From an uncultured Acidobacteriaceae bacterium (GTDB taxonomy: Bacteria; Acidobacteriota; Terriglobia; Terriglobales; Acidobacteriaceae), in NCBI GenBank assembly GCA_963773645.1, contig CAVZBV010000002.1, positions 1,242,600-1,282,599 on the forward strand: 40,000 bases of DNA, read 5' to 3'. Shown here piece after piece: positions 20,964-35,810 of the stretch (the first letter of the stretch is position 1; each line of letters begins with the position of its first letter). The translations under genes and the position numbers were made by a program. Under the pieces are notes generated by a model, which made no database searches, was not told the origin of the DNA, and was given only the letters and a program-made list of their open reading frames with translations.

Positions 20964-21230
20964 ATGCCCCGTCGTATGTTTTCTACCGTTCCTTTTCCCA
21001 GTGGTGCATCCTCCCGCTCGATATGGGAGAAACTATATGAGCGTGCGATTCTGGAACTTGATTACGCAAAAGTGCCCGAGCGGATTGCTGAAGCTCGTCA
21101 GTCTATGCATGACAGGGCTGAAGAAATACTCACCGAGTCGTCGAGTAACGAACGAGGCGCTCTCAATAAGGCGCTGCGGAACTTAGGCTTACTTGAGGAA
21201 ATGACAGCGAGAGAAAAATCCATAGAATAG
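20964..21230 (+). CDS. small hypothetical protein
   Basis: 88 aa with GAGGAG 8 nt upstream. Helical sequence (EKLYERAILELDYAKVPERIAEARQSM...). No recognised motif. Confidence 0.45.
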   Translation: MPRRMFSTVPFPSGASSRSIWEKLYERAILELDYAKVPERIAEARQSMHDRAEEILTESSSNERGALNKALRNLGLLEEMTAREKSIE

Positions 21231-21443
21231 AACATCCCCTCTAACACCCCTTAAACCCGCGCGGCGACCTGCTCCGTACCTGCGATGGTTCCCACCACCG
21301 CATCAACTTGTCAACTGCGATCTCACTGCGATCTCACAAGATCGCGAACGGTGGGCGGCCAGCCTGGCGCTACCCACTCGCTATTGGCCCCCGCACACAT
21401 CACCACGCCTGCCCCACTCGCGCGCCCGGTCCACTCCGCGCAT

Positions 21444-21541
21444 CCCGCCCGCCCCACTCGCCAGCGCGCGGGCCCCGGCCCCAGGGTCCAAAGTTCCCGT
21501 GTGGGGGGTGTAGCACTTTTGCCGTCGCCATACACAAACCC
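21444..21541 (-). repeat. right terminal inverted repeat of element A (98 bp)
   Basis: Exact reverse complement of 9621-9718. Confidence 0.85.
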
Positions 21542-21555
21542 CATCCTTCGTTGAC
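21542..21555 (+). repeat. direct repeat copy 2 of CATCCTTCGTTGAC (shared junction between elements A and B)
   Basis: Sits exactly between the right TIR of A (ends 21541) and the left TIR of B (starts 21556). Confidence 0.8.
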
Positions 21556-21645
21556 GGGTAGGATGTGGCGACGGGAAAAACGGCTACACCCCCTCCCCGG
21601 AACTTGGACCCCAGAGGCCGGGGCCCGCGCGCGAGCGAGTGGGGC
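21556..21645 (+). repeat. left terminal inverted repeat of element B (90 bp)
   Basis: GGGTAGGATGTGGCGACGGGAAAAACGGCTACACCCCCTCCCCGGAACTTGGACCCCAGAGGCCGGGGCCCGCGCGCGAGCGAGTGGGGC is the exact reverse complement of 35874-35963. Confidence 0.85.
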
Positions 21646-22012: not shown

Positions 22013-23176
22013 ATGAAACAGCAAATCATCCGAAGCAGGAAATCTGGTCACGTTTCTGTGACAACGCTGATACTGGCAATCGTAATAACTGCCGTTGTTG
22101 TGATTGGAGCTTCATTCTTCCTCTGGAAATCGAAAAGTGCTGCTACACGAATCTCCGCACCGCAACAATCGGGAGCAGTCCAGGAGCAACGTTCCACGGA
22201 GAAGAGTCAAGCCAGTCCGAAGTCGAGCACGGAACCACCGCGAGAGGTATCTGCCGAGGACATATTTAAGTCGGCATCGCCCAGTGTCGCTCTGATTGAG
22301 GTGTTCAATGAGTCAGGGGAACGGCTTGGCACGGCAAGTGGTTTCGTGGCAAGCGATAACGGGGCGGTCATCACTAATTATCACGTGATTAGGGGTGCAT
22401 ATTCGGCAAATGCTCATTTTCAGGACGGCAGCACACGTTCTGTTGAAGGTGTAATTGGCCATGACCCCTATCGCGATGTGGCTGTCGTTAAAGTTAGCGA
22501 TGTCGGAGCGAAACCTCTGACTCTCGGTGACTCAGAGCATGTGCAGGTTGGTGACAAAGTAACCGCGATAGGGTCGCCTCTGGCCTTAGAGAACACAGTC
22601 TCCGATGGGCTAGTGAGCGGGATTCGGAACGGAGTGATTCAAACCAGTACACCGATTAGCCCTGGATCGAGCGGCGGGCCGTTCTTCAATTCGTACGGTG
22701 AAGTCGTCGGAATTGCGGTTGCGACTGCTACTTTCAAAGGCCCCGAGAACATGAATCTTGCCGAGAACGTAAATTTTGCAGTTCCGATCAATTGGGCAAA
22801 AACCTATCTGCACGACTCCACGATCACTTCACTTGCCGATCTCGCGAAACAAAACACCGTTGTGAAACAGGTACTAGGTTCGACCATTTCCGTTCCAGCG
22901 CACCAACGTCGTGTTCTGCCGATTGTCGTCAATCCACACCAAATGTCGAACGCTGAACTCAAAGGGTCGTTTTCTTCCAGAGGCGGTGTGGACGGCGTTA
23001 TTCGGATCATGGTGCTCAACCAAAACAGTGTTGTTTATGACTCAGGTCGAACCGCAACCGGAACAGTTCACCTACCACTTAGAGCGGGAACCTACCAGTT
23101 GGTACTTGATAACACTAGATCGGCGCTATTTCCTCGGAGCGTGACATCTGACTTTAGCTTGCGCTATGTGAAATAG
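22013..23176 (+). CDS. membrane-anchored trypsin-like (S1/HtrA-type) serine protease with an unknown C-terminal domain
   Basis: N-terminal TM helix (VTTLILAIVITAVVVIGASFFLW). Catalytic triad contexts TNYHVIRG, RDVAVVKV, PGSSGGPFF. GGGAG lies upstream of the ATG. No PDZ recognised; the last ~120 aa are uncharacterised. Confidence 0.85.
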   Translation: MKQQIIRSRKSGHVSVTTLILAIVITAVVVIGASFFLWKSKSAATRISAPQQSGAVQEQRSTEKSQASPKSSTEPPREVSAEDIFKSASPSVALIEVFNESGERLGTASGFVASDNGAVITNYHVIRGAYSANAHFQDGSTRSVEGVIGHDPYRDVAVVKVSDVGAKPLTLGDSEHVQVGDKVTAIGSPLALENTVSDGLVSGIRNGVIQTSTPISPGSSGGPFFNSYGEVVGIAVATATFKGPENMNLAENVNFAVPINWAKTYLHDSTITSLADLAKQNTVVKQVLGSTISVPAHQRRVLPIVVNPHQMSNAELKGSFSSRGGVDGVIRIMVLNQNSVVYDSGRTATGTVHLPLRAGTYQLVLDNTRSALFPRSVTSDFSLRYVK

Positions 23177-23339
23177 GAACAGGAACACCCAGAATTAGAA
23201 GTGCGGGCTGAAGGTCCTCCGGTAGCGAAATTGCCGAGACGCCAGCAACTTACTAAGGACTGTTGGGGCAAAAGTACCAGATTCTTTTACACGGAAGGCA
23301 ACGTAACCAACAGGAACTCTTGAACCAAAAGGGGGATTT

Positions 23340-23780
23340 ATGAAACGCTTCACAGCACAGCTGGTCCTGGTAGTTGCGGTGACGCTTTCCGCGTCGATGG
23401 CAAACGCAGCGATGACAGGTGCCAGTCTTGAAAAACTTTGTACTAGTTGGACTGTAGACGCAAGCCTAGCCGCGTCGGTTGGCCCCGGCAAGACTTACGA
23501 AAACCTGGATGGGTTTAGAAATGCCACTTGGTGCCAAGCATACATCGGAGGTTACGGGGCCGGTATCAAAGGCGCGATGGGAACCGACGACAAGGGCATC
23601 ATGGGCACCTACACTATTGAACAGGGAGTTACTCCGCCGCAAGTTGTCAAAGTATTCAAACAGTACATTGCGAACCATCCAGAAGAAGAGAACAAACCCG
23701 CTGGCGATGTGTTATACCACGCCATGACCAGCTCCGGGCTACTCACCCTGGTAGTGGAAGAGAAATCAGGCAATCAATGA
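23340..23780 (+). CDS. small secreted protein, unknown function (faint resemblance to Rap1a/Tai4-type immunity proteins)
   Basis: Signal peptide MKRFTAQLVLVVAVTLSASMANA. The pattern TGASLEKLC...WCQAYIGGYG recalls the C...C-x-Y-I-x-G pattern of Rap1a-like domains, from memory only. Confidence 0.6.
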   Translation: MKRFTAQLVLVVAVTLSASMANAAMTGASLEKLCTSWTVDASLAASVGPGKTYENLDGFRNATWCQAYIGGYGAGIKGAMGTDDKGIMGTYTIEQGVTPPQVVKVFKQYIANHPEEENKPAGDVLYHAMTSSGLLTLVVEEKSGNQ

Positions 23781-23898
23781 AAACCTTTAAGACTTTTTCA
23801 AAACACAGATAGCGGCAGCGTAGGATTCGGAGACTCCGAGTGTCGACGATATAGCAGAAATCGTAATCTCGGCGATTATCTTCGACACCTGCCCGACC

Positions 23899-25392
23899 TT
23901 AGTCCACCGTCACATCCCGAGTTTCCTTCATTCCTAAATACGATCGGAACATAGGGTGTACCTGAAAACGCGGTATATTACGGAGATTCAAATTCCCCAA
24001 CTGGTGAGGGCCCACGTAGCTGCTCCCGCTTCGACGAACAGCCTTGATACCCCCAACAGCTTGCGCACGAAGGAAACCGATTCGCCAGAGGATGTCAATT
24101 AACAGATCTGGTTCCTGATTATGGACCCAGCCAGCATCCTGATGCAGACCGTACTCACCAGTTGTTATAGCTAAACAAAGAAGGTCGAGCTCGTCACGTT
24201 TGAAGCCATAAGAGCGACCCCGAAACACGTCAAAAATGCTGGATAGGCCAGGGTACTGGAACCGATATTCAGCGGAGATGTCATTCGTTCTAGCCTCGGA
24301 GTATCCACTCTCAGCTTGGCTGATCACCCGATACTCGATAGGCCAGACTTCAGCGCTGCGACTTTCCTCCAAAGCATCGGTACAAAATTGTATGATCTCG
24401 CGCGGACGATATAGAGTTCGGTCCACCAAATAATTAAAGGACTTAGCTCCCCGATAGTCGAGAGTGTCCACAAAAACGGAGTTCCAACAGTCCGTATCAT
24501 CACTTGAAATGAGACCAGGTACAGTGTGGCGGATACGCTTAGCGACGAGCTCAAGCAACATCGTTTCATTCCAATTTATGGTTTCCATTACATCGCGATA
24601 CTTCTGCGCATCCTCGTAAAGTGACGGAATGCTGTCGTAAAGTTCTTTGCGCAAAGTAACGAGCACTCGAACCGGTTTGGTCACCTCATTGATTGAAACT
24701 GCCGCTTGGAACAATCCGGCGACGAATGCCTTAGCATCTTCGGACGCGTCCCATCCGCGATCCAGCTCATCTACTAGAACGACCACTTTCTGGCGACTAC
24801 AAATCTCGGCTATCCCTGGCAAAAGCGGCTCGATCTCTTCGAGTTTATAAAGACGAAAGAGTTCTTTCGATTTGACAGCCGTTTCATACTTACCAACCTT
24901 TAGCCCCTCCATTCTCTTCAGATAAGAAACTAAGGTCCCAATTGGATTGGTTTGCTCCCCACTGTGATTGTCTCGTAGATACTCGTAAATCTTCGCGGCA
25001 GCCCCGGTCTTTAGTCGACGGCCTTGCTTATTGAGGCCCTTCATTACAAGGACGTAAATCAGATACTTCCAGGCTGCTGCATATGCACCCTGTTTTGCCC
25101 AAGCACCCTCCGTTTCATGTTTCATGATAGATGACAGCATTTCGTAGGAATAATTTTCGGGTGCAAGCTCAATGACGAGGGAGCCCTTCGCGCGTTCTCG
25201 CTCAGCGACCATTTTGAAAATTGCACTCTTACCTGAGCCCCTATTTCCTAAAATTACAAACTTTTCTCCAGCAAGTACCCGACGAAAGGTTTCTGATTCA
25301 ACGAAGTATTCACGTAATCCTCTATCTATGTCACGCTCTGCCGCCGGGGCTCCAAAGCTAAGCGACTTGAAACCGTGAGGCATAATACTCAT
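23899..25392 (-). CDS. P-loop NTPase (KAP/STAND-like), unknown function
   Basis: Walker A ILGNRGSGKSA and Walker B VVVLVDELDRGWD, followed by a long helical C-terminal region. 497 aa. Confidence 0.8.
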   Translation of the reverse strand: MSIMPHGFKSLSFGAPAAERDIDRGLREYFVESETFRRVLAGEKFVILGNRGSGKSAIFKMVAERERAKGSLVIELAPENYSYEMLSSIMKHETEGAWAKQGAYAAAWKYLIYVLVMKGLNKQGRRLKTGAAAKIYEYLRDNHSGEQTNPIGTLVSYLKRMEGLKVGKYETAVKSKELFRLYKLEEIEPLLPGIAEICSRQKVVVLVDELDRGWDASEDAKAFVAGLFQAAVSINEVTKPVRVLVTLRKELYDSIPSLYEDAQKYRDVMETINWNETMLLELVAKRIRHTVPGLISSDDTDCWNSVFVDTLDYRGAKSFNYLVDRTLYRPREIIQFCTDALEESRSAEVWPIEYRVISQAESGYSEARTNDISAEYRFQYPGLSSIFDVFRGRSYGFKRDELDLLCLAITTGEYGLHQDAGWVHNQEPDLLIDILWRIGFLRAQAVGGIKAVRRSGSSYVGPHQLGNLNLRNIPRFQVHPMFRSYLGMKETRDVTVD

Positions 25393-25610
25393 GTTGTTAA
25401 ACCAGAATTTCTTTTGTTGATTTCCAAATCGGCACCATTCTACGCCTATTCTCGCGTCGAATACACATTTGTGAACGTGGTAAGATAGACCCTAATTGTG
25501 ATTCATGTTCAAAGTCAGACCGTACGCTCGTCTACTTATCCGGTAAAATGCCGACGAGTCTGCGCAAGCGCCTGCCAGTGCTGATGGGATTTGTGATCCG
25601 TACTGACGAT

Positions 25611-26126
25611 TCATGGTGCAAAGAGCGCCTTCAGGAACAGAGCGCCAGCTAGCAGCGGGAGCCAGGTCTTGACCTCACGTAAGGAACGTGCCAGCATCTC
25701 AATCCCTCTGGTGAACGGCCACGGACTATCCTGCCCAAAGGCGGCAGTACATTCTCTTGCCCAACGATCCGGGTTTTGAGCCGCGTACTTGATTCTGCGT
25801 CGGTGCAATTCACCCATCAACTTGGCCCCGGCCAAGCTGATCGCGAGACTCAGTATCACGAGGCCAAGCGAACTCTTTGCCCAAAGATTGTTCAAGATCG
25901 TCTGAACAGAGCCGAATGCCGCCCAGTTGGCACCAATTAACGCCAAGGACAACTGGAAACTGCTATCGGTGAGCTTACCAGTCCAATACTCGAAGTCTTG
26001 TTTCACGGCCCTCTGCGCTTCACCAGGGTTGGCGTAGAGGGCCACAATGTGCCTCTGGGATTCCGTGACTTTGTCCGTTCCGACCGAAGAAGAATTCGAT
26101 GACCCCTCAACCACGATGCCCTCCAC
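25611..26126 (-). CDS. integral membrane protein, unknown function
   Basis: 171 aa from a GTG start. Hydrophobic segments FQLSLALIGANWAAFG, SSLGLVILSLAISLAGA, WLPLLAGALFLKALF. Same strand as, and upstream of, the NTPase gene. The start is uncertain. Confidence 0.55.
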   Translation of the reverse strand: MEGIVVEGSSNSSSVGTDKVTESQRHIVALYANPGEAQRAVKQDFEYWTGKLTDSSFQLSLALIGANWAAFGSVQTILNNLWAKSSLGLVILSLAISLAGAKLMGELHRRRIKYAAQNPDRWARECTAAFGQDSPWPFTRGIEMLARSLREVKTWLPLLAGALFLKALFAP

Positions 26127-26338: not shown

Positions 26339-27874
26339 TTACGACTCACAGCCTTCGTTCGTCGAGACTTCCGCCAGCTTCGCCAGGGCCTGCCAATGCC
26401 GTGGATGCGGGCGATAGCCCTCGCGAATCCGACCCGCGTACCAGCGGGAAACTCCAATCCTCTTTGCGATAGACGTTACCGAGGCTTGCGCAAGTGCTGG
26501 CTGAATTTTCTCCGAAAACACCTGTTCGTTGAGCCATGTCGGTTGCTTCGCTGGATTCCAAGCAGCCCGCGCCTGTGCGAGCTTACGGTGCGTCGCCGCT
26601 TCTTTGGCAATCGCTTCCGGGGTATGTCCGGCAACGCGTCCCACTTTTGCGGCTTCCACTAGGCGCTTGGTTGCAACGTCAACGTCACATTCAGCGCAGT
26701 TTATTGAAGTGCCTTGAACTGGTTTGCCACACCCACGGCAAACCCTCTCAGGTTTCGGAACCTTGACCAATGGAACGTCACTTCCCTTTGCTTCGCGCTT
26801 GTTCCGCTGAGTAAGGCGGGTCGCTATCCGTTGCCGAGCAACAGTTGATGGGGGCCTGGAAATCGATGCCCAAAGCGCTTGCGCAACATATTCTGCTATC
26901 GGAGCCACGAGCTTGCTCCATGTGTGCGAAGTTTGGGCAAGTTTGATCGCTAAGGATGAAACCACCCGACAGTTCCCATTGCGATCCTCCCAGAAGTCCG
27001 ATTTGCGAAGAGGCTCATTCTGAAGCCAATTAAGAACGAATGCGTCCACCTTGGGGCGGCAGACTTCCATCAGGTCGCAAGCGAGGGAATCTCTGTTAGG
27101 TGTATCCACATGGAGCACACCAATACCTGGATCAAGGCCCATTACAGTTGCAGAAAGACGTGACTCACTTTCCAAAAGTGCGTAGAGAAGATTGAGCAGG
27201 GCGTTGGGCGGACTAGAGGCAAGACGCGGGCTATGGGTCAAGGGTGAGATGCGCGAGCCGAACCGTTTCCAATGTTCGGGCACGCGGCGCTCGTCCTTGC
27301 GTGGCCAGCAAATCGGAACATCAGACCACGCCTGCCAGTATAGCTTCGCTGCTTGGGCCTCAATCAGCCTTACTCGGTCGATGCTCTCAGCGCTCATCAA
27401 CTCATCTCTGAATCGATCAATCGCCTCTGCTGTGGAAGAATCGCACAGCATGTCGCGAACGAGCGAGGCCTGTCCCGCCAGCTTTTGACCGATGAGTTCT
27501 TTGGAAATCTTGAGCGCCGTCCCATTGCCGAGTGCGAGCGCTTGCGCTCTGCGGAGCTTGGCATCCGATGAAGAGATGGGGCCAGTGACAGCGAGCACCT
27601 TGCCTCTGCGGTCAAGCATTACGAACGCCGCGCCCACGTCAGAAATCCAGCGGAGAGCCTCAAGGGTGATGAAGCCGTCGCTCCCGATCATTACCAGCCT
27701 GCGCAGCCCGTGACCCACACGGGGCAGGCGGATGGTCCGGCGCTCGTCGGCGATTCCATCGTGCAGGATCAAATGCCCAGCGTTCACCTGGACGCGAATG
27801 CCATAGCCGTAAAGTGTGATAACTCCACGCCGGGGCAAAGCTGGACACCCGAGTTCTGCACTCGCATTGTTCAT
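26339..27874 (-). CDS. cas1: Cas1 family integrase (casposase-like) with C-terminal Zn-ribbon and HTH
   Basis: Cas1 hallmarks: N-terminal beta domain (LYGYGIRVQVNAGHLILHDG...IRLP...LVMIGSDGFITLEALRWISDVGAAFVMLD), LRRAQ, IEAQAAKLYW (E172), PPNALLNLLYALLESE, GLDPGIGVLH (H255), DSLACDLMEVCRPKVD (D267/E270). The C-terminal extension has CRGC...CAEC (379-396) and a helix-turn-helix (SVTSIAKRIGVSRWYAGRIREG). Confidence 0.9.
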   Translation of the reverse strand: MNNASAELGCPALPRRGVITLYGYGIRVQVNAGHLILHDGIADERRTIRLPRVGHGLRRLVMIGSDGFITLEALRWISDVGAAFVMLDRRGKVLAVTGPISSSDAKLRRAQALALGNGTALKISKELIGQKLAGQASLVRDMLCDSSTAEAIDRFRDELMSAESIDRVRLIEAQAAKLYWQAWSDVPICWPRKDERRVPEHWKRFGSRISPLTHSPRLASSPPNALLNLLYALLESESRLSATVMGLDPGIGVLHVDTPNRDSLACDLMEVCRPKVDAFVLNWLQNEPLRKSDFWEDRNGNCRVVSSLAIKLAQTSHTWSKLVAPIAEYVAQALWASISRPPSTVARQRIATRLTQRNKREAKGSDVPLVKVPKPERVCRGCGKPVQGTSINCAECDVDVATKRLVEAAKVGRVAGHTPEAIAKEAATHRKLAQARAAWNPAKQPTWLNEQVFSEKIQPALAQASVTSIAKRIGVSRWYAGRIREGYRPHPRHWQALAKLAEVSTNEGCES

Positions 27875-28632
27875 GTCACTTTCCGTTTCTTGCTCGATTT
27901 ACGTTTCGTCTTTCCGTATCGGGAGGATTGGAAAGGATTGTCGGGCCTTGTTGCGCCAACGAGGTTAAGCGCCGTTCTAGTCCGAATGCCGAATACAGCT
28001 CCAGCGAGAGCGCGTGATAAGAACCACAGTTGCTTCCACAAGGTGGATGGACGGCGTGAAAATTCGCAACGCGGGAAGCGGGGATCACGTCTGGCTTCGA
28101 TAAACGCTTCGGCATGTTCAGATAGATAACGTGGGAGGACGCTGCCCGCAGTGATGGGCCAAGCCGGGACCTCCACTTCCTGTGAGTCAGACCCGAGAGG
28201 CATGTCGATGGTCATAAACGCCTCCCGGCATAGGTTTCGAATCTTCCGAGGGGTTGTTTTGGGCGATAACAATGATTCGATCACATCAGGTTCGCCCCGA
28301 ACCTTGATTCGCTTTGTTGATTCTTCCTCTGCAATGAATTTCAGAATTTCACGCGACTCTTCGCGCTTTAGTGCGCTGATCCGATTCTGTTTCTTCGTCC
28401 GATCTAAAAGACCTTTTCGGATTTCCTCTTCGACTTCTTTCTCGACCCTTGCCACTTCGTGGGGACTGTAATCGATAGTTCGGTTCGGATCTGCCATCAA
28501 TCGCTCATACTCTTGTCGGTCATGGAACAGCTTGTACTTTCCTTCGGCAAGTCGCCAGAAGTCCAAATAAAGTTGCTGGGACAGGACATAAAGCTCCCAG
28601 GGGTTCGCGCGATTGGGTCTACCGGCAGGCAT
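27871..28632 (-). CDS. hypothetical protein translationally coupled to cas1
   Basis: 253 aa. Its TGA overlaps the cas1 ATG (ATGA at 27871-27874). Charged helical middle and a Lys/Arg-rich C-terminus. No motif recognised. Confidence 0.6.
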   Translation of the reverse strand: MPAGRPNRANPWELYVLSQQLYLDFWRLAEGKYKLFHDRQEYERLMADPNRTIDYSPHEVARVEKEVEEEIRKGLLDRTKKQNRISALKREESREILKFIAEEESTKRIKVRGEPDVIESLLSPKTTPRKIRNLCREAFMTIDMPLGSDSQEVEVPAWPITAGSVLPRYLSEHAEAFIEARRDPRFPRCEFSRRPSTLWKQLWFLSRALAGAVFGIRTRTALNLVGATRPDNPFQSSRYGKTKRKSSKKRKVT

Positions 28633-28752
28633 AATTAAAGGGCAAAATCTATCTCGTGTGTCTTGACTGAATCAGAAATAGCCATACCATACATAGTATA
28701 TCACTTGTTCTTGCAGCATACTAGTGCAAGGGCAATTACGGGAGGCACCAAG

Positions 28753-28983
28753 ATGCATCGAGATGAAACCGTACTGGCGGTCGGAATGATTGAAGCTGCG
28801 CGGCGGCTAGGGTTGTCGGCCCGCACCGTGGCGACGCTCGTATCGCGCCGCGAGCTTCCGAGCCGGAAGGTGGGCCGCCGGAGAATCATCCCGGTTGTGG
28901 CCCTAGAAGCTTTCGTCGGGCGTGACCATCTGAACATTCGGCCTGAGCCTTCAGGCAGCGTGGAGAGAACTACCGCAGGGTGA
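28753..28983 (+). CDS. excisionase/MerR-type helix-turn-helix DNA-binding protein
   Basis: MIEAARRLGLSARTVATLVSRRELPSRKVGRRRIIPVVALEAFV matches the HTH_17/Xis-type pattern. GGAGG lies 7 nt upstream of the ATG at 28753 (the ORF track start at 28663 is probably too early). Confidence 0.75.
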   Translation: MHRDETVLAVGMIEAARRLGLSARTVATLVSRRELPSRKVGRRRIIPVVALEAFVGRDHLNIRPEPSGSVERTTAG

Positions 28984-28986: not shown

Positions 28987-29634
28987 ATGCCTTCAAAACG
29001 AAGGCCCCAGGCTCGCCGTGGAAGGAAACCTAGGGCCGGACCAAATTCGATAACTGGCAATAAAATACCACGCTCCAAGCGGGCAAACAAGCCTCGCCGC
29101 CGTGTGCATCGAGATTCCTCGCGTACAGGTCTGATTTCCAATCGTCATCGCGCACCCCGCCCATCCTCTCTTACCGTAGAGCAACTAAAGACGCGCGCGG
29201 ATGTACTGGCTGCGCACTCCGACATGTTGCGTGACCGCAACCTAACGGCGTCCCAAGCCGCTCGGGATAACGGGGTCTCTGTCCGCGATTTCTGGAAATA
29301 CATACCTAAAGCATTCAAAAAGGATTCAAGTGGACGGATTCGCGCTATAGCCGACCGCTATGTGCGAAGGATGGAGATTCCTGGACGGGATGGTCCCATC
29401 TTAATCACGGTCAGAGGGTCCAAAGCTAAGCGTGAATTTGCGCGATTCCGTAATGATGTCTTCAGTTTTCTCGCAGGGAATCGTTCTGCCCTTGACAAAT
29501 GGGACGGCGTAACTATCCAGGGTCATGAATTACTGACGGACCCTCGCATTATCCGAATGCTTGGCGAGCAAGGCAATCTCCCAGAACACTTCGGAAGCGA
29601 GCAAGTCATTCCGTACTCCAGAGGTGCCGCATGA
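28987..29634 (+). CDS. hypothetical protein with a highly basic N-terminus and a possible internal HTH
   Basis: 215 aa. The first ~60 aa are Arg/Lys/Pro-rich. LTASQAARDNGVSVRDFWKYI is HTH-like. The gene overlaps the next one by 4 nt. Confidence 0.6.
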   Translation: MPSKRRPQARRGRKPRAGPNSITGNKIPRSKRANKPRRRVHRDSSRTGLISNRHRAPRPSSLTVEQLKTRADVLAAHSDMLRDRNLTASQAARDNGVSVRDFWKYIPKAFKKDSSGRIRAIADRYVRRMEIPGRDGPILITVRGSKAKREFARFRNDVFSFLAGNRSALDKWDGVTIQGHELLTDPRIIRMLGEQGNLPEHFGSEQVIPYSRGAA

Positions 29635-29924
29635 GACGCTGCAATCTCTGCGGTAGCACTCACAAGGTAACCCAGCATCACGTTGGAGGGCAGAATTTCA
29701 TTGCTTGGTTCACGATGTCGCTCTGCGCTAAGTGTCAACTAATTTTCCACGCGAGACAACGGGCAGCCGGAATAGATCTATGCTCCACACCGAATCCCTT
29801 TCACAGGCTCATCCGTGCGCTAAAGATGACAGTTCTGTTCATGTGGATGTTGCTCGATATGGTCGAAAAGGAGATTGATTCGGACATCGAGAAAGCTAAA
29901 GCTCTGCAGGGGAACTCAAAATGA
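29631..29924 (+). CDS. small HNH-like nuclease/zinc-finger protein
   Basis: CNLCGSTHKVTQHHVGGQN...LCAKCQLIFH fits the CxxC...HH...N...CxxC..H layout of HNH domains. 97 aa with a hydrophobic C-terminal stretch. Confidence 0.6.
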   Translation: MRRCNLCGSTHKVTQHHVGGQNFIAWFTMSLCAKCQLIFHARQRAAGIDLCSTPNPFHRLIRALKMTVLFMWMLLDMVEKEIDSDIEKAKALQGNSK

Positions 29925-29934
29925 GGGATTCGAA

Positions 29935-32900
29935 ATGATCGAAACCCACGATCTCTTCCTGCGCGCCCTTGCCGTGCCTGCAGCAAAAAAGAAGAAAAAG
30001 ACCAAGGATGGCGAAAAGTTCGAGAGCTACGTGGCTGACGAACCGAAGTGGCCAGACACCGTCGTTGCGTTCGATACTGAGAGCCGGATCACAGTAGATC
30101 AGTCGCTGACTTTTGGCGTGTGGCGACGCTGCAAGCTAGTCGGACAGAAATATGAGGTCATCGAAGAGGGGATCTTCCACGCTGATGACTTACCTGCGAA
30201 AGATATCAAAATTCTCGAAACATACATGGAGACGGCGGTCCCCGATGTACGGTCATTCCCTCCCCGCTTCCCGCTCTACTCGCGCTCCAAGTTCATGAAG
30301 AAACTTTTTTGGCCCGCGCTTAAGAAACACGGCGCTATGATCTGTGGACTGAACTTGCCTTATGACTTGAGCAGACTGGCCCTGGATTGGAAGGAAGGGA
30401 ACAAGGGCGAATGGTCACTAATCATGGCCCAATACGCTGATGGAAATGAAAACTGCAATTATCCACGTATTCTCATCACTCCCATTGATAGCAAAAAGGC
30501 GATTATCAAGCTGTGGAGACCTTGGAAAAAGGTTCAGCACGAATGGAAGGACGCGGGCAGGAAGATTCATTTCCTCGATCTGCGAACGCTGCTCTGGGCG
30601 CTTTATAACAAGTCTCACTCGCTCAAGAGTGCCTGTGACAATCGAAATGGCCCGTTCAAAGAACAAGACTTGCCACAAAAGGATGACCACGACCCTACTG
30701 GCGAGGTCATACCTGATGAAATTGAGCACTGCCGTCAGGATGTCCGCTGCACGGTCGCACTACTGAACGCTTGCAAGCGGGAATTCGATAAGCACTCGGA
30801 TATGGACCTGAAGCCGTGGGATGCCTACTCGCCTGCGAGCATGGCCAAGGCCTACCTCAAAGCAATGCGGATTGAAAGGCCTGCGGTTAAGTTTAAGGTG
30901 CCGGACAAGAAAAACGCCATTTGGATGCAATCCTACTTCGGCGGGCGCTCAGAATGCCGAATACGGCACGAAGTTGTTCCCGTCGTTCCAGTCGATTTCA
31001 CTTCCGAGTATCCGTCCTGCTGCGCAAATCTCGGCCTGTTCAAATTTCTCACCGCTAAACGTCTGAAGTTTGTCGATGACACGGCAAACATACAGCGGTT
31101 CGTCACGAACATCACCCACGAACAATGCTTTCAGCGTGGAACGTGGCATGATCTAAATTTTGTGGCCCGCGTGATCCCTGATGGAGACATCCTGCCCGTT
31201 AGGACTGTTTACGACGGTGTAAGTCACAATATCGGCAACAACTATTTATCTGCAAATCCTTCCCACCCAGAACCAGTTTATGTGGCTGGGCCCGACCTGG
31301 TTGCGGCAGTGATTCAGCAACCCGGAAAGATTCCGAACATTCAACAGGCATTCAGGATCGTCCCCTCGGGAAAGCAGCTTGGAATGCGAGCGGTAAGACT
31401 CCGAGGGAGAGTTCTGATCGACCCTAACGATGATCCCGTTGACCTGTTCACAAAAATCATCGAGGAGCGTAAACGCAACAAGAATGATCCCGATCTCTAC
31501 TATTGGCTCAAGATTCTCGCCAATTCAATTTACGGATTTTTCGTGGAACTGATCCCAGAACATTTTAAGCAGCCCAAGGCTGTGATGGTATTTTCTGGTG
31601 ATGAGAGCTTTCCCGATTTCTCCAGTGTGATCGAGCGCCGGGGGAAGTGGTTCGCGCCGTTCTTGGCGACTCTTATTACATCTGCGGGAAGGCTTTTGCT
31701 CTCCTTGCTAGAGGCAGAAGTCACACGGGTAAATGGCACCTATCTATACTGCGACACCGACAGTCTGGCAATTGTGGCATCGAAAAAAGGCGGCGCACTC
31801 CGCATTCCCGGAGCTCAAGACAAGCGCATTTTGACTTTGGATGAGGTTGACGAGATTACCACCAAATTTCAGGCGCTCAATCCGTACAACCCTAATGAAG
31901 TGCCGGACCTGCTAAATCTCACGGACGATAACTACGTTTGCTCGTGTTCGCATGAACTCAAAACCGAGCATGACGAAACCGGAGTTTGTGCGGCGCGCGG
32001 ATGCAAGTGCAAAGCGGGAAAAAAGGTGAGGCGGCAATTGTGGGGTTTGGGTATAGCCGCCAAAAGGTACGCGCTGTTTGAAAGGGTATTGGACAGACGC
32101 GGAAAATTAACAGACATAAGAATCGTCAATCCTAAAGCGCACGGGATCGGTTTCCTGTACCCGCCGAAAGACAAATCGAAAAATTGGAAAAAAGACGCGC
32201 CACTGTGGATTTACGAGATGTGGGATTACATCGTGCGCGGATTCCTGGGATTACCGCGCAAACTACCCGCGTGGGCTTCCCTTCCACAAATGATGCGCTT
32301 CTCCGTATCGACTTGGAACGTGCTCAAAATGCTGGGTATGTGGGAGGGCGCACGTCCCCACAATTTTATGTTCATGGTAATGACCTCCGAGGCGTTTTCG
32401 TTTAACTTCGATTTTGATAACAAACCAAGCAAAAAACCGATGGTGATTGTGCCGTTTTCGAGCAAGCAAGGCGAATGGAGCAAACTCGAAGGGATTGACA
32501 TTCACAATAAGAACCGGCGCGGGAAGTACCGGCGTTACCGGCTGGACGATCCCGATTTTCACCCTTTCACCTACGCGCACATGATTGAGGAATACGTCCG
32601 GCACCCCGAGGCCAAGAGCCCGGGCCCGGACGGGAAGCCCTGCACAGCAGAAACTCGCGGGCTTTTAAAGCGAGCGCACATCACAGCAGGGCAGATTCGC
32701 TATATCGATAAAGAAACATCCTCAATGTGGACGCATGGCGACGATTTCAGTGTAGTCACCGATCATGACGAGACCGGGTTCAGGGTGATCGAGTACGGGA
32801 AAAGCCGAAAAATCGTACTTCCAAACTCGTTGAAACGCGAGATCGAACAAATTAAATTACGCGAGTTGATGCGAAGAGGAATTGGGCAGCACACCATTGA

Positions 32901-32982
32901 AAAAGCGCTGCACACGCATGTACGCGTAAATACCTACAGCAAAATTCTGGCCGCAATCGCGGAATACAACACCGGCACCTAA
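29935..32982 (+). CDS. polB: family B DNA polymerase with 3'-5' exonuclease domain
   Basis: ExoI VVAFDTES, ExoII GLNLPYDLSRL, ExoIII EIEHCRQDV. Motif A VDFTSEYPS, motif B KILANSIYGFF, motif C LYCDTDSLAI, KxY AAKRYALF. The start was chosen at the ATG after GAGGG, downstream of the preceding stop; the ORF track start at 29875 overlaps the HNH gene. Confidence 0.92.
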   Translation: MIETHDLFLRALAVPAAKKKKKTKDGEKFESYVADEPKWPDTVVAFDTESRITVDQSLTFGVWRRCKLVGQKYEVIEEGIFHADDLPAKDIKILETYMETAVPDVRSFPPRFPLYSRSKFMKKLFWPALKKHGAMICGLNLPYDLSRLALDWKEGNKGEWSLIMAQYADGNENCNYPRILITPIDSKKAIIKLWRPWKKVQHEWKDAGRKIHFLDLRTLLWALYNKSHSLKSACDNRNGPFKEQDLPQKDDHDPTGEVIPDEIEHCRQDVRCTVALLNACKREFDKHSDMDLKPWDAYSPASMAKAYLKAMRIERPAVKFKVPDKKNAIWMQSYFGGRSECRIRHEVVPVVPVDFTSEYPSCCANLGLFKFLTAKRLKFVDDTANIQRFVTNITHEQCFQRGTWHDLNFVARVIPDGDILPVRTVYDGVSHNIGNNYLSANPSHPEPVYVAGPDLVAAVIQQPGKIPNIQQAFRIVPSGKQLGMRAVRLRGRVLIDPNDDPVDLFTKIIEERKRNKNDPDLYYWLKILANSIYGFFVELIPEHFKQPKAVMVFSGDESFPDFSSVIERRGKWFAPFLATLITSAGRLLLSLLEAEVTRVNGTYLYCDTDSLAIVASKKGGALRIPGAQDKRILTLDEVDEITTKFQALNPYNPNEVPDLLNLTDDNYVCSCSHELKTEHDETGVCAARGCKCKAGKKVRRQLWGLGIAAKRYALFERVLDRRGKLTDIRIVNPKAHGIGFLYPPKDKSKNWKKDAPLWIYEMWDYIVRGFLGLPRKLPAWASLPQMMRFSVSTWNVLKMLGMWEGARPHNFMFMVMTSEAFSFNFDFDNKPSKKPMVIVPFSSKQGEWSKLEGIDIHNKNRRGKYRRYRLDDPDFHPFTYAHMIEEYVRHPEAKSPGPDGKPCTAETRGLLKRAHITAGQIRYIDKETSSMWTHGDDFSVVTDHDETGFRVIEYGKSRKIVLPNSLKREIEQIKLRELMRRGIGQHTIEKALHTHVRVNTYSKILAAIAEYNTGT

Positions 32983-33071: not shown

Positions 33072-35810
33072 GTGAATACGATCCGCTCCACAGACTGGAC
33101 GGCCCACTCAGTCCGTATCGCTGCCTGCGGTCTCGGGGCCGTACTCGGTGGCCCTTTGGGAGGTGTGCTGGGCGGCTGGCTCGGCAATGCCCTGGGACCG
33201 TCGGCAGTCGACCTGATCACTCATTACGCCGAAAAGTTCGGTGAAGGGGCCGCGGTAAAACTGCTCGATCTCGGCGCTGGCTCCTTTGTGCAGGGCTCGG
33301 AGATGGAGATGGGTCCCACGGAGTTAGAAGCTCTCTACCGTGAAACTCTTCAATTCAGTCTTAACGAGCTTTCCACATCAATCTCCGGGAACCGTTATGA
33401 GGACTGGTTCAATCACTGGCAATGCTGCCTTGCATCCAAAGCAAATCTGAATCTCTCTGATGTCACACTGGGCCAGTCAGACAAGGGCAACCCGCATGAC
33501 CAACTTCGTCTGGTCCTGGAAACTCTCGACGCCCAGGGAGCGGCGATGGCGCGGAACGATTTGTCGCTCAACATCACGCTCCGCGCACTTCCAGAAGAAC
33601 TCCTATCCAAACTGATAGCCAAGCTTCCAGAATCCCTCGACAAGAATTTTCGCGCGCTCATTGTTGGATCAAAATACGAAAGGGCATGGAAGGAAAAGTT
33701 GCTGATATTCGAGCGATCCGCTCGGAAAGCGCTCGAAGATATCGATCAAACAACACAGAGAACCGAATCCAAGGTGGACAGGATCGGCGAAGACGCAAAG
33801 GCGATCCGAGAGCTGCTCGAAAAGGAATGGAGAAGCGCGCAACAGCAAGGCCGACTCAGTCCGGAACAGTTGAAGGACAAAGACCAAGAGATCGCACGCC
33901 TGACCGAACAGCTTCGCAAATTGCAGGATGAACTTGCGGCGCGGTCATCCGAGCCGGAAGAAGTCCGCCTGTCGACACTTATTGCGACCGGAGACCTCGC
34001 AGGGGCAATTCGACTGAAATCAAACCAGGTAAACTCGCGCAGAAGCGAGGCACAGATGTTGCCGCGCGATCTCTTCGAACTGGGCAAGCTTCATGAACTG
34101 CGCTTCGATTGGCCCAATGCTTTACGGGCGTACCGTGAAGCATGGGAGCTACGCCAGGACCCGGAATTCGGATTTTCTTACGCCTATTATGCACGGCTAC
34201 AGAATCATTTCACAGAAGCCATCGCGGTATATCAGAATCTCCTTCCGACCTCCCGGAACCCTGCTGATCGCGCGATGACGCTCAACAACATGGCCGTTCT
34301 CTACCGCGAGACGCAGCGGATGAAGGACGCCGAAGCGGCATTCGTTGAGGCGCTGTCGATTCGTCACGAGTTGGCCAAAGCAAACCCGGAGGCCTACCTC
34401 CCGATTGTAGCGATGACGCTCAACAACATGGCCATTCTCTACCGTGACACGCAGCGGATGAAGGACGCCGAAGCGGCATACGGGGAGGCGCTATCGAAGT
34501 ATCGCGAGTTGGCCAAAGCGAACCCGGAGGCCTACCTCCCGGATGTAGCGATGACGCTCAACAACCTGGCCATTCTCTACAGCGACACGCAGCGGATGAA
34601 GGGCGCCGAAGCGGCATTCGGGGAGGCGCTGTCGAAGTATCGCGAGTTGGCCAAAGCGAACCCGGAGGCCTACCTCCCGTATGTAGCGATGACGCTCAAC
34701 AACCTGGCGAATCTCTACCGCGACGCGCAGCGGATGAAGGACGCCGAAGCGGCATTCGGGGAGGCGCTGTCGAATCGTCGCGAGTTGGCCAAAGCGAACC
34801 CGGAAGCCTACCTCCCGGATGTAGCCACGACGCTCAATAACCTGGCCGTTCTCTACAGCGACGCGCAGCGGATGAAGGACGCCGAAGCGGCATACGGGGA
34901 GGCGCTGTCGATTCGTCGCGAGTTGGCCAAAGCGAACCCGGAGGCCTACCTCCCGTATGTAGCCACGACGCTCAATAACCTGGCCGTTCTCTACAGCGAC
35001 GCGCAGCGGATGAAGGACGCCGAAGCGGCATACGGGGAGGCGCTGTCGATTCGTCACGAGTTGGCCAAAGCGAACCCGGAGGCCTACCTCCCGGATGTAG
35101 CCACGACGCTCAACAACCTGGCCGTTCTCTACCGCGAGACGCAGCGGATGAAGGACGCCGAAGCGGCATTCGTTGAGGCGCTGTCGATTCGTCACGAGTT
35201 GGCCAAAGCAAACCCGGAGGCCTACCTCCCGGATGTAGCCACGACGCTCAACAATCTGGCCGTTCTCTACAGCGACACGCAGCGGATGAAGGACGCCGAA
35301 GGGGCATACGGGGAGGCGCTGTCGAAGTATCGCGAGTTGGCCAAAGCGAACCCGGAGGCCTACCTCCGGTATGTAGCGATGACGCTCAACAACCTGGCCG
35401 TTCTCTACAGCGACACGCAGCGGATGAAGGACGCCGAAGGGGCATACGGGGAGGCGCTGTCGAAGTATCGCGAGTTGGCCAAAGCGAACCCGGAGGCCTA
35501 CCTCCCGGATGTAGCCACGACGCTCAACGACTTGGCGAATCTCTACCGCGACGTGCAGCGGATGAAGGACGCCGAGAGCTGCTGCTTGGAGGCGAGCGCT
35601 ATTCTTGAGCCTCTGTGGCAGGCCAATCTAGAAGTGCACGGCGACCAGTTCGCCAGGATTCTGTTGACTCAGGCTCTACTCTGTGAGCTGGGGGGAAGGT
35701 CTAACACAGAGGCGTGCCGTCTGGCCAGGCGTGCTTTCGATGCTGCATACCAGGCTCAGCTCAAGCACATCGCCCAGGAGATGATAGATAACTTTTGCAG
35801 TAAAACTTGA
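33072..35810 (+). CDS. glycine-zipper N-terminal domain / coiled-coil / TPR-like repeat protein
   Basis: GTG start. N-terminus GLGAVLGGPLGGVLGGWLGNALG (GxxxG zipper). Charged coiled-coil region (about aa 230-300). Then ten 46-aa repeats of the kinesin-light-chain/TPR_10-12 type (TLNNLAVLYxDTQRMKDAEAAYGEALSxxRELAKANPEAYLPDVA). Confidence 0.85.
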   Translation: MNTIRSTDWTAHSVRIAACGLGAVLGGPLGGVLGGWLGNALGPSAVDLITHYAEKFGEGAAVKLLDLGAGSFVQGSEMEMGPTELEALYRETLQFSLNELSTSISGNRYEDWFNHWQCCLASKANLNLSDVTLGQSDKGNPHDQLRLVLETLDAQGAAMARNDLSLNITLRALPEELLSKLIAKLPESLDKNFRALIVGSKYERAWKEKLLIFERSARKALEDIDQTTQRTESKVDRIGEDAKAIRELLEKEWRSAQQQGRLSPEQLKDKDQEIARLTEQLRKLQDELAARSSEPEEVRLSTLIATGDLAGAIRLKSNQVNSRRSEAQMLPRDLFELGKLHELRFDWPNALRAYREAWELRQDPEFGFSYAYYARLQNHFTEAIAVYQNLLPTSRNPADRAMTLNNMAVLYRETQRMKDAEAAFVEALSIRHELAKANPEAYLPIVAMTLNNMAILYRDTQRMKDAEAAYGEALSKYRELAKANPEAYLPDVAMTLNNLAILYSDTQRMKGAEAAFGEALSKYRELAKANPEAYLPYVAMTLNNLANLYRDAQRMKDAEAAFGEALSNRRELAKANPEAYLPDVATTLNNLAVLYSDAQRMKDAEAAYGEALSIRRELAKANPEAYLPYVATTLNNLAVLYSDAQRMKDAEAAYGEALSIRHELAKANPEAYLPDVATTLNNLAVLYRETQRMKDAEAAFVEALSIRHELAKANPEAYLPDVATTLNNLAVLYSDTQRMKDAEGAYGEALSKYRELAKANPEAYLRYVAMTLNNLAVLYSDTQRMKDAEGAYGEALSKYRELAKANPEAYLPDVATTLNDLANLYRDVQRMKDAESCCLEASAILEPLWQANLEVHGDQFARILLTQALLCELGGRSNTEACRLARRAFDAAYQAQLKHIAQEMIDNFCSKT
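34275..35654 (+). repeat. in-frame tandem array: nine near-identical 138-bp units plus one degenerate unit (coding TPR-like repeats)
   Basis: Units start at 34275, 34413 and so on (period 138 nt), with the ninth at 35379 and a degenerate tenth at 35517. Adjacent units differ at only a few nucleotides. Confidence 0.9.

What the first reader, a model, noticed from the sequence alone, without database searches (positions are those of the whole stretch)
26339..27874. Cas1 with C-terminal Zn-ribbon plus HTH extension and no Cas2 partner
The protein is 511 aa, well beyond a typical ~300-aa Cas1. After the catalytic alpha-helical domain come a CxxC-x10-CxxC zinc ribbon (residues 379-396 by my count) and a terminal helix-turn-helix (about 463-500). 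A C-terminal HTH is characteristic of casposases. The inserted Zn ribbon and the long linker (about 330-378, rich in R/K/T) are features I do not recall for described families. The only coupled partner is an uncharacterised 253-aa protein rather than Cas2.
Basis: partly seen in the sequence, partly recalled or inferred. Interest (0 to 1): 0.65.

Follow-up and report, generated by a model that had tools for sequence, protein, structure and literature searches.

The report
Casposon integrase from soil Acidobacteria
The long "Cas1" is the integrase of a complete, apparently recently active self-replicating transposon (a casposon); its zinc-ribbon and DNA-binding tail was already reported for a bacterial casposon in 2014, so this is a new member of a known kind, though it belongs to a large family in soil Acidobacteria that I could not find described.

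Summary
The ORF at 26339-27874(-) encodes a 511-aa Cas1 with CRGC-x10-CAEC (residues 379-396) and a C-terminal HTH, and it is translationally coupled (ATGA overlap) to a 253-aa ORF.

It is not an oddity or an artefact. It is the casposase of an intact 14.4-kb casposon (21556-35963) with perfect 90-bp TIRs, a 14-bp target-site duplication, a CDTDS-type PolB and the family-3 gene order.

- **Extension:** it is family-wide. The four Cys align in 97 of 105 divergent sequences and the catalytic tetrad in 105 of 105. Krupovic et al. 2014 already described a Cas1 with both a zinc-binding domain and an HTH at the C-terminus (AceAut-C1).
- **No Cas2:** this is the norm for casposons.
- **253-aa protein:** an orphan fold, present in about 6 of 80 related loci. 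It always pairs with an excisionase-like HTH_17 gene and occasionally sits upstream of a tyrosine recombinase instead of Cas1. It is an accessory module, not a Cas2 substitute.

New here: at least 143 related loci in Acidobacteriota reference genomes, a conserved target upstream of a Ser/Thr kinase gene, and a tandem array with a decayed second casposon (9621-21541).

Verdict: new member of a known kind, moderate interest.

The parts
26339..27874 (-). Casposase (Cas1 homolog, 511 aa): N-terminal beta domain, catalytic helical domain, basic linker, C4 Zn ribbon, helical hairpin and HTH
   Evidence: Pfam Cas_Cas1 2.9e-40. TIGR00287 1.7e-32. Top PDB fold hit is the M. mazei casposase 6OPM, E 1e-16. 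Profile vs PDB: 6opm and 4n06 tie at 1.9e-26.
26858..27562 (-). Catalytic alpha-helical domain (residues ~105-339) with E172, H255, D267, E270
   Evidence: These residues align to the catalytic positions of 6opm/4n06. They are invariant in 105/105 divergent sequences.
26741..26857 (-). Basic, predicted-disordered linker (residues 340-378) containing a conserved T-x-L-T...R motif (T352, L354, T355, K/R359)
   Evidence: pLDDT <50 for 339-375. Net charge +8. T352 86/105, L354 92/105, T355 91/105, R/K359 89/105.
26687..26740 (-). C4 zinc ribbon, CRGC-x10-CAEC (residues 379-396)
   Evidence: The four Cys are invariant in 121/121 close homologs and align in 97/105 divergent sequences. Scattered weak Zn-ribbon Pfam hits across members.
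26375..26488 (-). C-terminal helix-turn-helix (residues ~463-500, Xre-like)
   Evidence: HTH_3 E 7e-4 on the isolated tail. HTH_3/HTH_31 down to 7e-6 in other members. Helices 466-473, 477-484 and 491-500 at pLDDT ~90. G486, P489, H490 and W494 are near-invariant.
27871..28632 (-). 253-aa accessory protein (p253), translationally coupled to the casposase; orphan fold
   Evidence: ATGA overlap. Family of at least 182 homologs with no Pfam domain. Model pLDDT 86, pTM 0.73. No fold match in PDB or BFVD. No Pfam, NCBIfam, PHROG or PADLOC hit. Cas1 lies directly downstream in 66-67 of 73 family loci and a tyrosine recombinase in 3.
28663..28983 (+). HTH_17 / excisionase-like (MerR-type) DNA-binding protein, divergent from p253-cas1; the likely true start is the ATG at 28753
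   Evidence: PF12728 1.4e-9, TIGR01764 9.8e-8. PHROG excisionase families. Co-occurs with p253 in every locus examined.
28987..29634 (+). p215, a conserved casposon core protein (probable HTH protein)
   Evidence: Found in 38 of 78 related loci, between Cas1 and PolB. Homologs give weak HTH_29/HTH_31 hits. It occupies the position of the 'HTH' gene of family 2/3 casposons.
29631..29924 (+). p97, a small Cys/His-rich protein (probable divergent HNH/ZBD)
   Evidence: Found in 23 of 78 loci, immediately upstream of PolB. Homologs give weak hits to DUF968 and the RecA-dependent nuclease family. It occupies the position of the HNH gene in family 2/3 casposons.
29875..32982 (+). Family B DNA polymerase (1035 aa), Motif C 'YCDTDS'
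   Evidence: PF03175 3.9e-8. The CDTDS motif is visible in the translation. The PolB_CDTDS group includes the A. boonei casposon PolB. PolB is present in 60 of 78 related loci.
21556..21645 (.). Left terminal inverted repeat of the casposon
   Evidence: 90 nt, 100% complementary to 35874-35963.
35874..35963 (.). Right terminal inverted repeat of the casposon
21542..21555 (.). 14-bp target-site duplication CATCCTTCGTTGAC, shared with element A
   Evidence: There are exactly three copies in the window against a chance expectation of 0.28.
35964..35977 (.). 14-bp target-site duplication, 53 bp upstream of the Ser/Thr kinase gene (36031-38661)
   Evidence: The same site is used in L003, L004 and L007.
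22013..26126 (.). Cargo: trypsin-like peptidase (22013-23176+), Rap1a-like protein (23340-23780+), Sll1717-family P-loop ATPase (23899-25392-), 171-aa unknown protein (25611-26126-)
33072..35810 (+). Cargo: 912-aa TPR protein containing nine 138-nt tandem repeats
9621..21541 (.). Element A: a decayed casposon in tandem. It has perfect 97-98-bp TIRs, PolB remnants, hsdM/hsdS cargo, three IS3-like copies and one ISL3; its outer TSD copy is at 9607-9620

Best explanation
The 511-aa protein is the casposase (Cas1-family integrase) of an intact, apparently recently active 14.4-kb casposon (21556-35963). The element belongs to, or sits next to, the bacterial family 3 of casposons.

Mechanism, by analogy with the characterised archaeal casposases: the casposase works without Cas2, as a dimer of dimers. 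It joins the 3' ends of the two TIRs (terminal GGG(G)TA...) to a specific intergenic site at positions staggered by 14 bp, and gap repair creates the 14-bp duplication. The element's own CDTDS-type PolB is presumed to replicate the element.

The tail comprises a basic flexible linker, a C4 Zn ribbon, a helical hairpin and an Xre-like HTH. It is an integral, family-wide DNA-recognition module. It most likely reads the sequence flanking the target site and/or the conserved subterminal TIR motif GGCGACGG(C/G)AAAA..GCTACACCC.

The upstream 253-aa protein is an optional accessory. It forms a portable cassette with the divergently transcribed excisionase-like HTH_17 gene, and most likely regulates or assists integrase expression or directionality.

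Shown here: identity of the domains, their conservation, intact catalytic residues, TIRs, TSDs, reuse of the same site, and gene order. Inferred: oligomeric state, the DNA-binding role of the tail, and the role of p253.
For: - Cas1 fold and catalytic residues: (best structural match 6OPM casposase; E172/H255/D267/E270 in 105/105).
- Complete element: 90-bp perfect TIRs and a 14-bp TSD.
- Polymerase: PolB with Motif C CDTDS, matching the casposon PolB_CDTDS group.
- Gene order: Cas1 - MerR-like HTH - HTH - HNH-like - PolB, the same as the published family-3 elements HenMar-C1 and NitAL212-C1.
- Element dimensions: the 14-bp TSD and 14.4-kb size match NitAL212-C1 (14,414 bp, 14-bp TSD, TIR starting GGGGTAT). 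The M. mazei casposase also makes 14-bp TSDs.
- Site specificity: relatives L003, L004 and L007 have their own TIRs and 14-15-bp TSDs of the same GTCAA(C)GAAGGAYG-like site upstream of orthologous kinase genes.
- Repeated use of the site: it was used twice in this window, giving three TSD copies.
- Family-wide architecture.
- Published precedent for a C-terminal ZBD plus HTH in AceAut-C1.
- The HTH is essential for integration in M. mazei, and a tetramer replaces Cas2.
- Element GC content of 0.50-0.55 against 0.59-0.62 in the flanks.
Against: - No phylogeny with reference casposases could be built, so family-3 membership rests on synteny, host, TSD/TIR features and architecture.
- TIR similarity to NitAL212-C1 is only modest (14-16 of 35 positions; about 3-4.5% of shuffles do as well).
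- The HNH and HTH assignments of p97 and p215 rest on sub-threshold hits.
- PolB's only significant Pfam hit is PF03175, the 'organellar and viral' family, and it has no sequence match in the PDB.
- The Zn-ribbon region is modelled with only moderate confidence (pLDDT 55-74).
- No DNA-binding or activity data exist for any family-3 casposase. Hickman et al. could not show DNA binding by the isolated M. mazei HTH.
Confidence: 0.88

Rival explanations
1. The element and its casposase represent a distinct, undescribed casposon family (an Acidobacteriota clade) and are not members of family 3. The Cas1-ZnR-HTH architecture would then be convergent with, or only distantly related to, that of AceAut-C1.
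For: No paper in the searchable library links casposons with Acidobacteria. Published family-3 hosts are Alphaproteobacteria, Betaproteobacteria, Actinobacteria and Acetothermia. The clade is very large and diverse: 1140 representatives at E<1e-30 (this count may include CRISPR Cas1 proteins) and at least 143 loci in GTDB species genomes. Family-3 Cas1 architectures are heterogeneous: none, ZBD at the N-terminus, or ZBD plus HTH at the C-terminus. A 'family 5' was proposed as recently as 2022.
Against: Gene order, TSD length, the terminal GGGGTA, intergenic insertion, the PolB motif and the Cas1 architecture all agree with published family-3 elements. Nothing found here contradicts family 3.
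Confidence: 0.25
2. The 253-aa protein is a functional replacement for Cas2: a structural subunit that bridges casposase dimers and is needed for integration.
For: It is translationally coupled to cas1. In its own family, 66-67 of 73 loci have Cas1 directly downstream. It has a confident, unmatched fold.
Against: It is present in only about 6 of 80 casposase loci of this clade, and the same slot holds at least five unrelated protein families or nothing. Elements with different slot proteins use the same target and make the same TSD. In 3 loci the p253 homolog is coupled to a tyrosine recombinase instead of Cas1. Characterised casposases work alone as tetramers.
Confidence: 0.07
3. The gene is a CRISPR-associated or domesticated 'Cas1-solo' remnant with no transposition role, and the extension is a regulatory add-on.
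For: Sources name homologs 'CRISPR-associated endonuclease Cas1'. TIGR00287 passes its cut-off.
Against: There is no CRISPR array, Cas2 or other cas gene. The gene lies inside a TIR/TSD-bounded element with PolB. The catalytic tetrad is intact. Genomes carry several copies, and independent elements carry different TIRs at the same target.
Confidence: 0.02
4. The long C-terminal region is an annotation, frameshift or gene-fusion artefact.
For: None beyond the unusual length.
Against: It is a single uninterrupted ORF. The same length and single-stretch alignment over residues ~10-505 occur in hundreds of independent assemblies. The tail is as conserved as the core among close homologs.
Confidence: 0.01

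Closest known systems
[quoted passage not shown] 2014, PMC4046053)
   Same: Bacterial casposon Cas1 with both a zinc-binding domain and an HTH fused to the C-terminus. No Cas2. The element has PolB, an HNH-like gene and an HTH gene, a 15-bp TSD, and an intergenic insertion site.
   Different: The host phylum differs (Acetothermia vs Acidobacteriota). AceAut-C1 is 20 kb with 602-bp TIRs and different cargo. Direct sequence homology of the two extensions could not be tested because no reference sequence was available.
NitAL212-C1, family 3 casposon of Nitrosomonas sp. AL212
   Same: Size of 14,414 bp against 14,408 bp here. 14-bp TSD. TIR begins GGGGTAT with TACAC at positions 29-33, as in relative L007. 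Gene order is PolB - HNH - HTH - MerR/TipA-like HTH - Cas1.
   Different: Its zinc finger is at the N-terminus of Cas1. Its PolB carries a C-terminal HTH. It has no p253-like gene. TIR identity is only 14-16 of 35 positions.
Methanosarcina mazei family 2 casposase (PDB 6OPM; Hickman et al. 2020)
   Same: Best structural match (E 1e-16). Same catalytic tetrad. 14-bp TSD. Site-specific integration. Cas2-independent tetramer. The C-terminal HTH is essential for activity.
   Different: It is archaeal and about 405 aa, with no Zn ribbon and no long basic linker. It targets the 3' end of a tRNA-Leu gene. The HTH regions show no detectable sequence similarity.
Tandem casposon arrays in Methanosarcina spp. 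(Krupovic et al. 2016, PMC4779613)
   Same: [quoted passage not shown] This is read as repeated use of one specific target, as with Tn7. The window shows the same layout: TSD - element A (decayed) - TSD - casposon - TSD.
   Different: This is a bacterial host. The decay here came from IS insertions and loss of cas1, not from stop codons in polB. The target lies upstream of a kinase gene.

Membership tests
Casposons (superfamily) | Cas1 homolog with all four catalytic residues | tested here: met
   E172, H255, D267 and E270 align with 6opm/4n06 and are invariant in 105/105 sequences.
Casposons (superfamily) | Family B DNA polymerase gene in the same element | tested here: met
   1035-aa PolB at 29875-32982 (PF03175 3.9e-8, Motif C CDTDS). 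PolB is present in 60 of 78 related loci.
Casposons (superfamily) | Terminal inverted repeats flanked by a target-site duplication | tested here: met
   90-bp perfect TIRs and a 14-bp TSD. Relatives show the same.
Casposons (superfamily) | No CRISPR array, Cas2 or other cas genes associated | tested here: met
   No CRISPR family in Rfam. No cas domains in the ORFs scanned. Caveat: not every ORF under 100 aa was screened for Cas2.
Family 3 (bacterial) casposons | Bacterial host | tested here: met
   78 related loci, nearly all in Acidobacteriota MAGs. The window's flanking genes are bacterial.
Family 3 (bacterial) casposons | Cas1 falls in the family-3 clade of the Cas1 phylogeny | not testable with these tools
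Family 3 (bacterial) casposons | PolB of the family 2/3 type, not the protein-primed family-1 type | tested here: inconclusive
   Motif C CDTDS matches the PolB_CDTDS group that contains the A. boonei casposon PolB. However, the only significant Pfam hit is PF03175, and no PolB tree was made.
Family 3 (bacterial) casposons | HNH endonuclease and conserved HTH genes between cas1 and polB | tested here: inconclusive
   Synteny matches HenMar-C1 and NitAL212-C1. HTH_17 is significant. p215 and p97 and their homologs give only sub-threshold HTH and His-Me/HNH-type hits.
Family 3 (bacterial) casposons | Insertion in an intergenic region | tested here: met
   The reconstructed empty site is about 131 bp, between a beta-lactamase-family gene (ending at 9542) and the kinase start (36031). 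All published family-3 elements are intergenic.
Family 3 (bacterial) casposons | Cas1 with C-terminal ZBD plus HTH (AceAut-C1 subtype) | tested here: met
   The architecture is shown, and the published description. Residue-level homology to AceAut-C1 was not testable.
CRISPR-Cas adaptation module (Cas1-Cas2) | Adjacent cas2 gene and CRISPR array | tested here: not met
   The neighbours are p253 (no family hit) and a 171-aa unknown protein. No array was found.
Family 2 casposases (A. boonei / M. mazei type) | About 405-aa Cas1 with a C-terminal HTH only; archaeal host; tRNA or intergenic target | tested here: not met
   This protein is 511 aa with an added linker and Zn ribbon, in a bacterial host.

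The most novel reading that the evidence does not exclude
The Acidobacteriota elements form a distinct, currently active and very abundant casposon lineage. Its casposase would use the linker, Zn ribbon and HTH tail for Tn7-like site-specific targeting upstream of a Ser/Thr kinase gene. The orphan-fold 253-aa protein, together with its HTH_17 partner, would be a new kind of integrase accessory/directionality cassette that is exchanged between Cas1-type and tyrosine-type integrases.
Probability: 0.2. Interest if true: 0.6.

Novelty: new member of a known kind. Interest (0 to 1): 0.35.

Why it matters
Casposons are regarded as the ancestors of the CRISPR adaptation machinery. Only archaeal family 1 and family 2 casposases have been studied biochemically, and only about eight bacterial (family 3) elements are described in the papers I could read.

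This window shows that soil Acidobacteriota carry a large, multi-copy set of intact bacterial casposons. They share a uniform Cas1-ZnR-HTH integrase, a clear conserved target site, tandem re-insertions and defence-like cargo. That gives a rich comparative set: hundreds of natural variants of the TIRs, the target and the tail. It could be used to work out how a Cas2-less Cas1 recognises its ends and its target, and whether the Zn ribbon and HTH do what leader-binding factors do in CRISPR adaptation.

The specific claim of the finding, an undescribed domain architecture, does not hold. The value lies in the expansion of a known kind and in side observations such as the p253/HTH_17 cassette.

Tried and rejected
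- **Homology search with the C-terminal tail alone:** it returned only fragments of the same Cas1 family, with no sign of the module in other protein contexts. Uninformative beyond that.
- **Cluster metadata for ten divergent representatives:** no names or taxa.
- **Genome scan with the diverse alignment A3:** Repeated with A1.
- **Function of p253:** no hits in Pfam, NCBIfam, PHROGs or PADLOC and no Foldseek match in PDB or BFVD.
- **PolB against PDB sequences:** nothing found.
- **Idea that PolB is protein-primed, which would imply family 1 or a new combination, raised by the PF03175 hit:** rejected, because Motif C is CDTDS (the casposon PolB_CDTDS group) and the synteny is that of family 2/3.
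- **Idea that the variable protein upstream of cas1 selects the target, like TnsD:** rejected for this site. Elements with p253 (window, L006), the c1 family (L003), an IS-disrupted slot (L004) or another gene (L007) all sit in the same target with the same TSD.
- **Idea that the slot families are remote homologs:** hhalign gave at most weak partial matches (c1-c2 85.9% probability over 61 columns; p253-c2 44%).
- **Idea of a tRNA or ncRNA target:** no tRNA and no Rfam family.
- **Idea that the tyrosine-recombinase loci carrying p253 are casposons with a swapped integrase:** no PolB or core genes were found within the sequence available in them (about 1.4-4 kb upstream).
- **The 2017 casposon review (PMC5665730):** not held in the library.
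Full report
**Observation.** The ORF at 26339-27874 on the minus strand is 511 aa. It carries CRGC at residues 379-382 and CAEC at 393-396, which is CxxC-x10-CxxC. Pfam places a Cas_Cas1 domain at residues 55-303 (E 2.9e-40) and a weak HTH_3 match at 468-506. On the isolated tail the HTH_3 match reaches E 7e-4, accompanied by several weak zinc-ribbon matches. The 253-aa ORF at 27871-28632 overlaps the cas1 start codon by ATGA. Every descriptive element of the finding is therefore correct.

**Not an artefact and not chance.**
- More than 120 protein clusters at 71-95% identity have the same 505-515-aa length and full-length coverage.
- In these clusters the four cysteines are invariant (121/121), and the tail is as conserved as the Cas1 core.
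- A search of 1.84 billion cluster representatives gave 1140 hits below 1e-30. Most of the best 150 (36-56% identity) align in one stretch over residues ~10-505 and are ~500-540 aa long.
- Among 104 such full-length representatives plus the query, the catalytic residues E172, H255, D267 and E270 are present in 105/105 and all four Cys align in 97/105. G486, P489, H490 and W494 of the HTH are near-invariant. A short motif in the 'linker' (T352, L354, T355, R/K359) is also conserved.
- The AlphaFold2 model has mean pLDDT 74. It has a confident Cas1 core, a disordered basic linker (339-375, net charge +8), a moderately confident ribbon, a helical hairpin (394-438) and a confident three-helix HTH (466-500).

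**What it is.**
- The best structural match is the Methanosarcina mazei casposase bound to its integration product (6OPM, E 1e-16). A profile search of PDB sequences gives 6opm and A. fulgidus Cas1 4n06 jointly on top (1.9e-26).
- The gene lies inside a complete mobile element. Perfect 90-bp inverted repeats sit at 21556-21645 and 35874-35963, flanked by a 14-bp direct repeat, CATCCTTCGTTGAC.
- Element GC content is 0.50-0.55, against 0.59-0.62 outside.
- A 1035-aa family B polymerase lies at 29875-32982. Its Motif C reads YCDTDS. 'PolB_CDTDS' is the group named by Kazlauskas et al. 2020, and it contains the A. boonei casposon polymerase.
- The gene order is Cas1 - [p253] - HTH_17 (excisionase/MerR-like) - p215 - p97 - PolB. 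Apart from p253, this matches the published bacterial family-3 casposons. HenMar-C1 is Cas1 - MerR-like HTH - HTH - HNH/ZBD - PolB, and NitAL212-C1 is the mirror image.
- p215 and p97 are conserved in 38 and 23 of 78 related loci. Their homologs give only sub-threshold HTH and His-Me/HNH-type hits, much as the 2014 authors found only 'partial' HNH hits.
- NitAL212-C1 is 14,414 bp with a 14-bp TSD and a TIR starting GGGGTAT...GTACAC. The element here is 14,408 bp with a 14-bp TSD, and its relatives' TIRs start GGGGTA with TACAC at the same offset. The overall TIR similarity is modest: about 3-4.5% of shuffles do as well.

**Is the architecture new?** No.
- Krupovic et al. [quoted passage not shown] Their supplement lists the AceAut-C1 protein as 'Cas1-Zf', and a 2023 review repeats the point.
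- Absence of Cas2 is the rule for casposons. The M. mazei enzyme works as a tetramer in which a second Cas1 dimer takes the place of Cas2. It makes 14-bp TSDs and is inactive without its HTH domain.
The extension is a common feature of a bacterial casposase family and has been published, although no Pfam or NCBIfam model covers it.

**What does appear to be undescribed.**
- A scan of one genome per GTDB species found 143 related loci. The best 80 are almost all from Acidobacteriota MAGs (Acidobacteriaceae, Terriglobales, Ca. Sulfotelmatobacter), with one from Eisenbacteria. Several genomes carry multiple copies.
- No paper in the searchable library connects casposons with Acidobacteria. The published family-3 hosts are Proteobacteria, Actinobacteria and Acetothermia.
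- I could not build a phylogeny with reference casposases, so membership of family 3, as opposed to a sister family, stays open.

**How it most likely works.**
- Independent relatives carry their own TIRs: L003 has 40 bp, L004 has 127 bp and L007 has a perfect 108 bp.
- All are inserted at the same GTCAA(C)GAAGGAYG-like site with 14-15-bp duplications, just upstream of orthologous Ser/Thr-kinase-PD40 genes.
- L007 shows the single-insertion state of the same locus, between the kinase and a beta-lactamase-family gene.
- In the window the site was used twice. A third exact TSD copy lies at 9607-9620. Between it and the casposon lies element A (9621-21541). Element A has perfect 97-98-bp TIRs about 80% similar to the casposon's, PolB remnants, no cas1, a Type I R-M hsdM/hsdS cargo, three copies of a 1.6-kb IS3-like element and one ISL3. 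Tandem casposons sharing a TSD, with one copy decayed, are known from Methanosarcina.
- Integration is therefore sequence-specific. The conserved subterminal TIR motif (GGCGACGG(C/G)AAAA..GCTACACCC) and the conserved target are the natural candidates for recognition by the Zn-ribbon/HTH tail. This last step is inference, supported only by the essentiality of the HTH in M. mazei.

**The 253-aa protein.**
- It has at least 182 homologs of about 250 aa with no known domain. Its model is confident (pLDDT 86, pTM 0.73), and it has no fold match in the PDB or BFVD.
- It occurs in only about 6 of 80 casposase loci. In the others the slot upstream of cas1 holds at least five other, largely unrelated families, yet target and TSD are unchanged.
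- Seen from the p253 side, 66-67 of 73 loci with enough sequence have Cas1 immediately downstream, while 3 have a tyrosine recombinase instead. An HTH_17 gene is transcribed divergently in every locus inspected.
- p253 is therefore an optional, portable integrase-associated cassette together with HTH_17. It most plausibly acts in regulation or directionality, and it is not a Cas2 analogue.

**Verdict.** The interpretation of an unusual architecture outside the described families, with a Cas2 substitute, is not upheld. The object is a new member of a known kind: a bacterial, family-3-like casposon with the AceAut-C1-type Cas1-ZBD-HTH casposase. Its moderate interest comes from the size and apparent activity of the Acidobacteriota clade, the clean conserved target site, the tandem array and the p253/HTH_17 cassette.

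Noticed in passing
window 9607-21555: There is a second, decayed casposon (element A, 9621-21541) in tandem with the intact one, sharing the 14-bp TSD (three exact copies at 9607, 21542 and 35964). It has perfect 97-98-bp TIRs and PolB fragments at about 14025-14327 and 15623-16090, but no cas1.
   Followed up: yes
window 9823-12924: Element A carries a Type I restriction-modification methyltransferase (HsdM, PADLOC MTase_I 2.9e-234) and a specificity subunit. No HsdR was identified. This is defence cargo on a casposon relic.
   Followed up: partly
window 12902-14025, 16117-17720, 19068-20671; ISL3 at 14350-15603: Three copies of an IS3-like element (rve integrase) are 100% identical to each other: two full 1604-bp copies in inverted orientation and one 1124-bp truncated copy. 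An ISL3 transposase is also present. All lie inside element A, and the ISL3 splits the PolB remnant. A 91.5% identical IS copy occurs in L047.
   Followed up: partly
window 22013-26126 and 33072-35810: The cargo of the intact casposon looks defence- or conflict-related: a trypsin-like peptidase (similar to the protease part of PADLOC RT-Protease_XI), a Rap1a-like immunity protein, an Sll1717-family P-loop ATPase (NF047389 2.8e-84; weak DS41 anti-phage match), and a 912-aa TPR protein with nine 138-nt tandem repeats at about 90% nucleotide identity.
   Followed up: partly
L088 1101-3259; L125 4-2130; L169 3636-5748: The HTH_17 and p253-family cassette is coupled (4-nt overlap) to a tyrosine recombinase (Phage_integrase, E 1e-23 to 1e-32) instead of Cas1. 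No PolB or casposon core genes were found within the sequence available upstream (about 1.4 kb in L088, 4 kb in L169). The cassette appears to move between integrase types.
   Followed up: partly
L001-L085, about 1.2 kb upstream of each cas1: The slot immediately upstream of cas1 is hypervariable. It holds a ~340-aa family (13 loci), a ~170-270-aa family (11), p253 (7) and several smaller groups. p253 and the ~340-aa family may share an 'FL(S/A)RALAG'-like motif, which was seen by eye and not confirmed by hhalign.
   Followed up: partly
window 26801-26821 (casposase residues 352-358) and aligned positions in homologs: A conserved short motif (consensus P-T-P-L-T-x-x-N-R; ATRLTQRNKR here) sits in the otherwise disordered basic linker between the Cas1 core and the Zn ribbon. 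Its function is unknown; it could be a DNA-contacting or protein-docking arm.
   Followed up: no
L031/L068 and L057/L076 (OY970265.1, about 2.40-2.44 Mb and 2.81-2.84 Mb): One complete Acidobacteriota chromosome has four casposase genes arranged as two pairs, 17-18 kb apart. This suggests that tandem casposon arrays are common in this clade.
   Followed up: no
L006 (contig_104857) 4869-7515: The closest relative (Cas1 95% identical, same cargo, same kinase-side flank) has its PolB called as two ORFs (200 and 689 aa). This suggests a frameshifted or decaying polymerase, or an assembly error.
   Followed up: no
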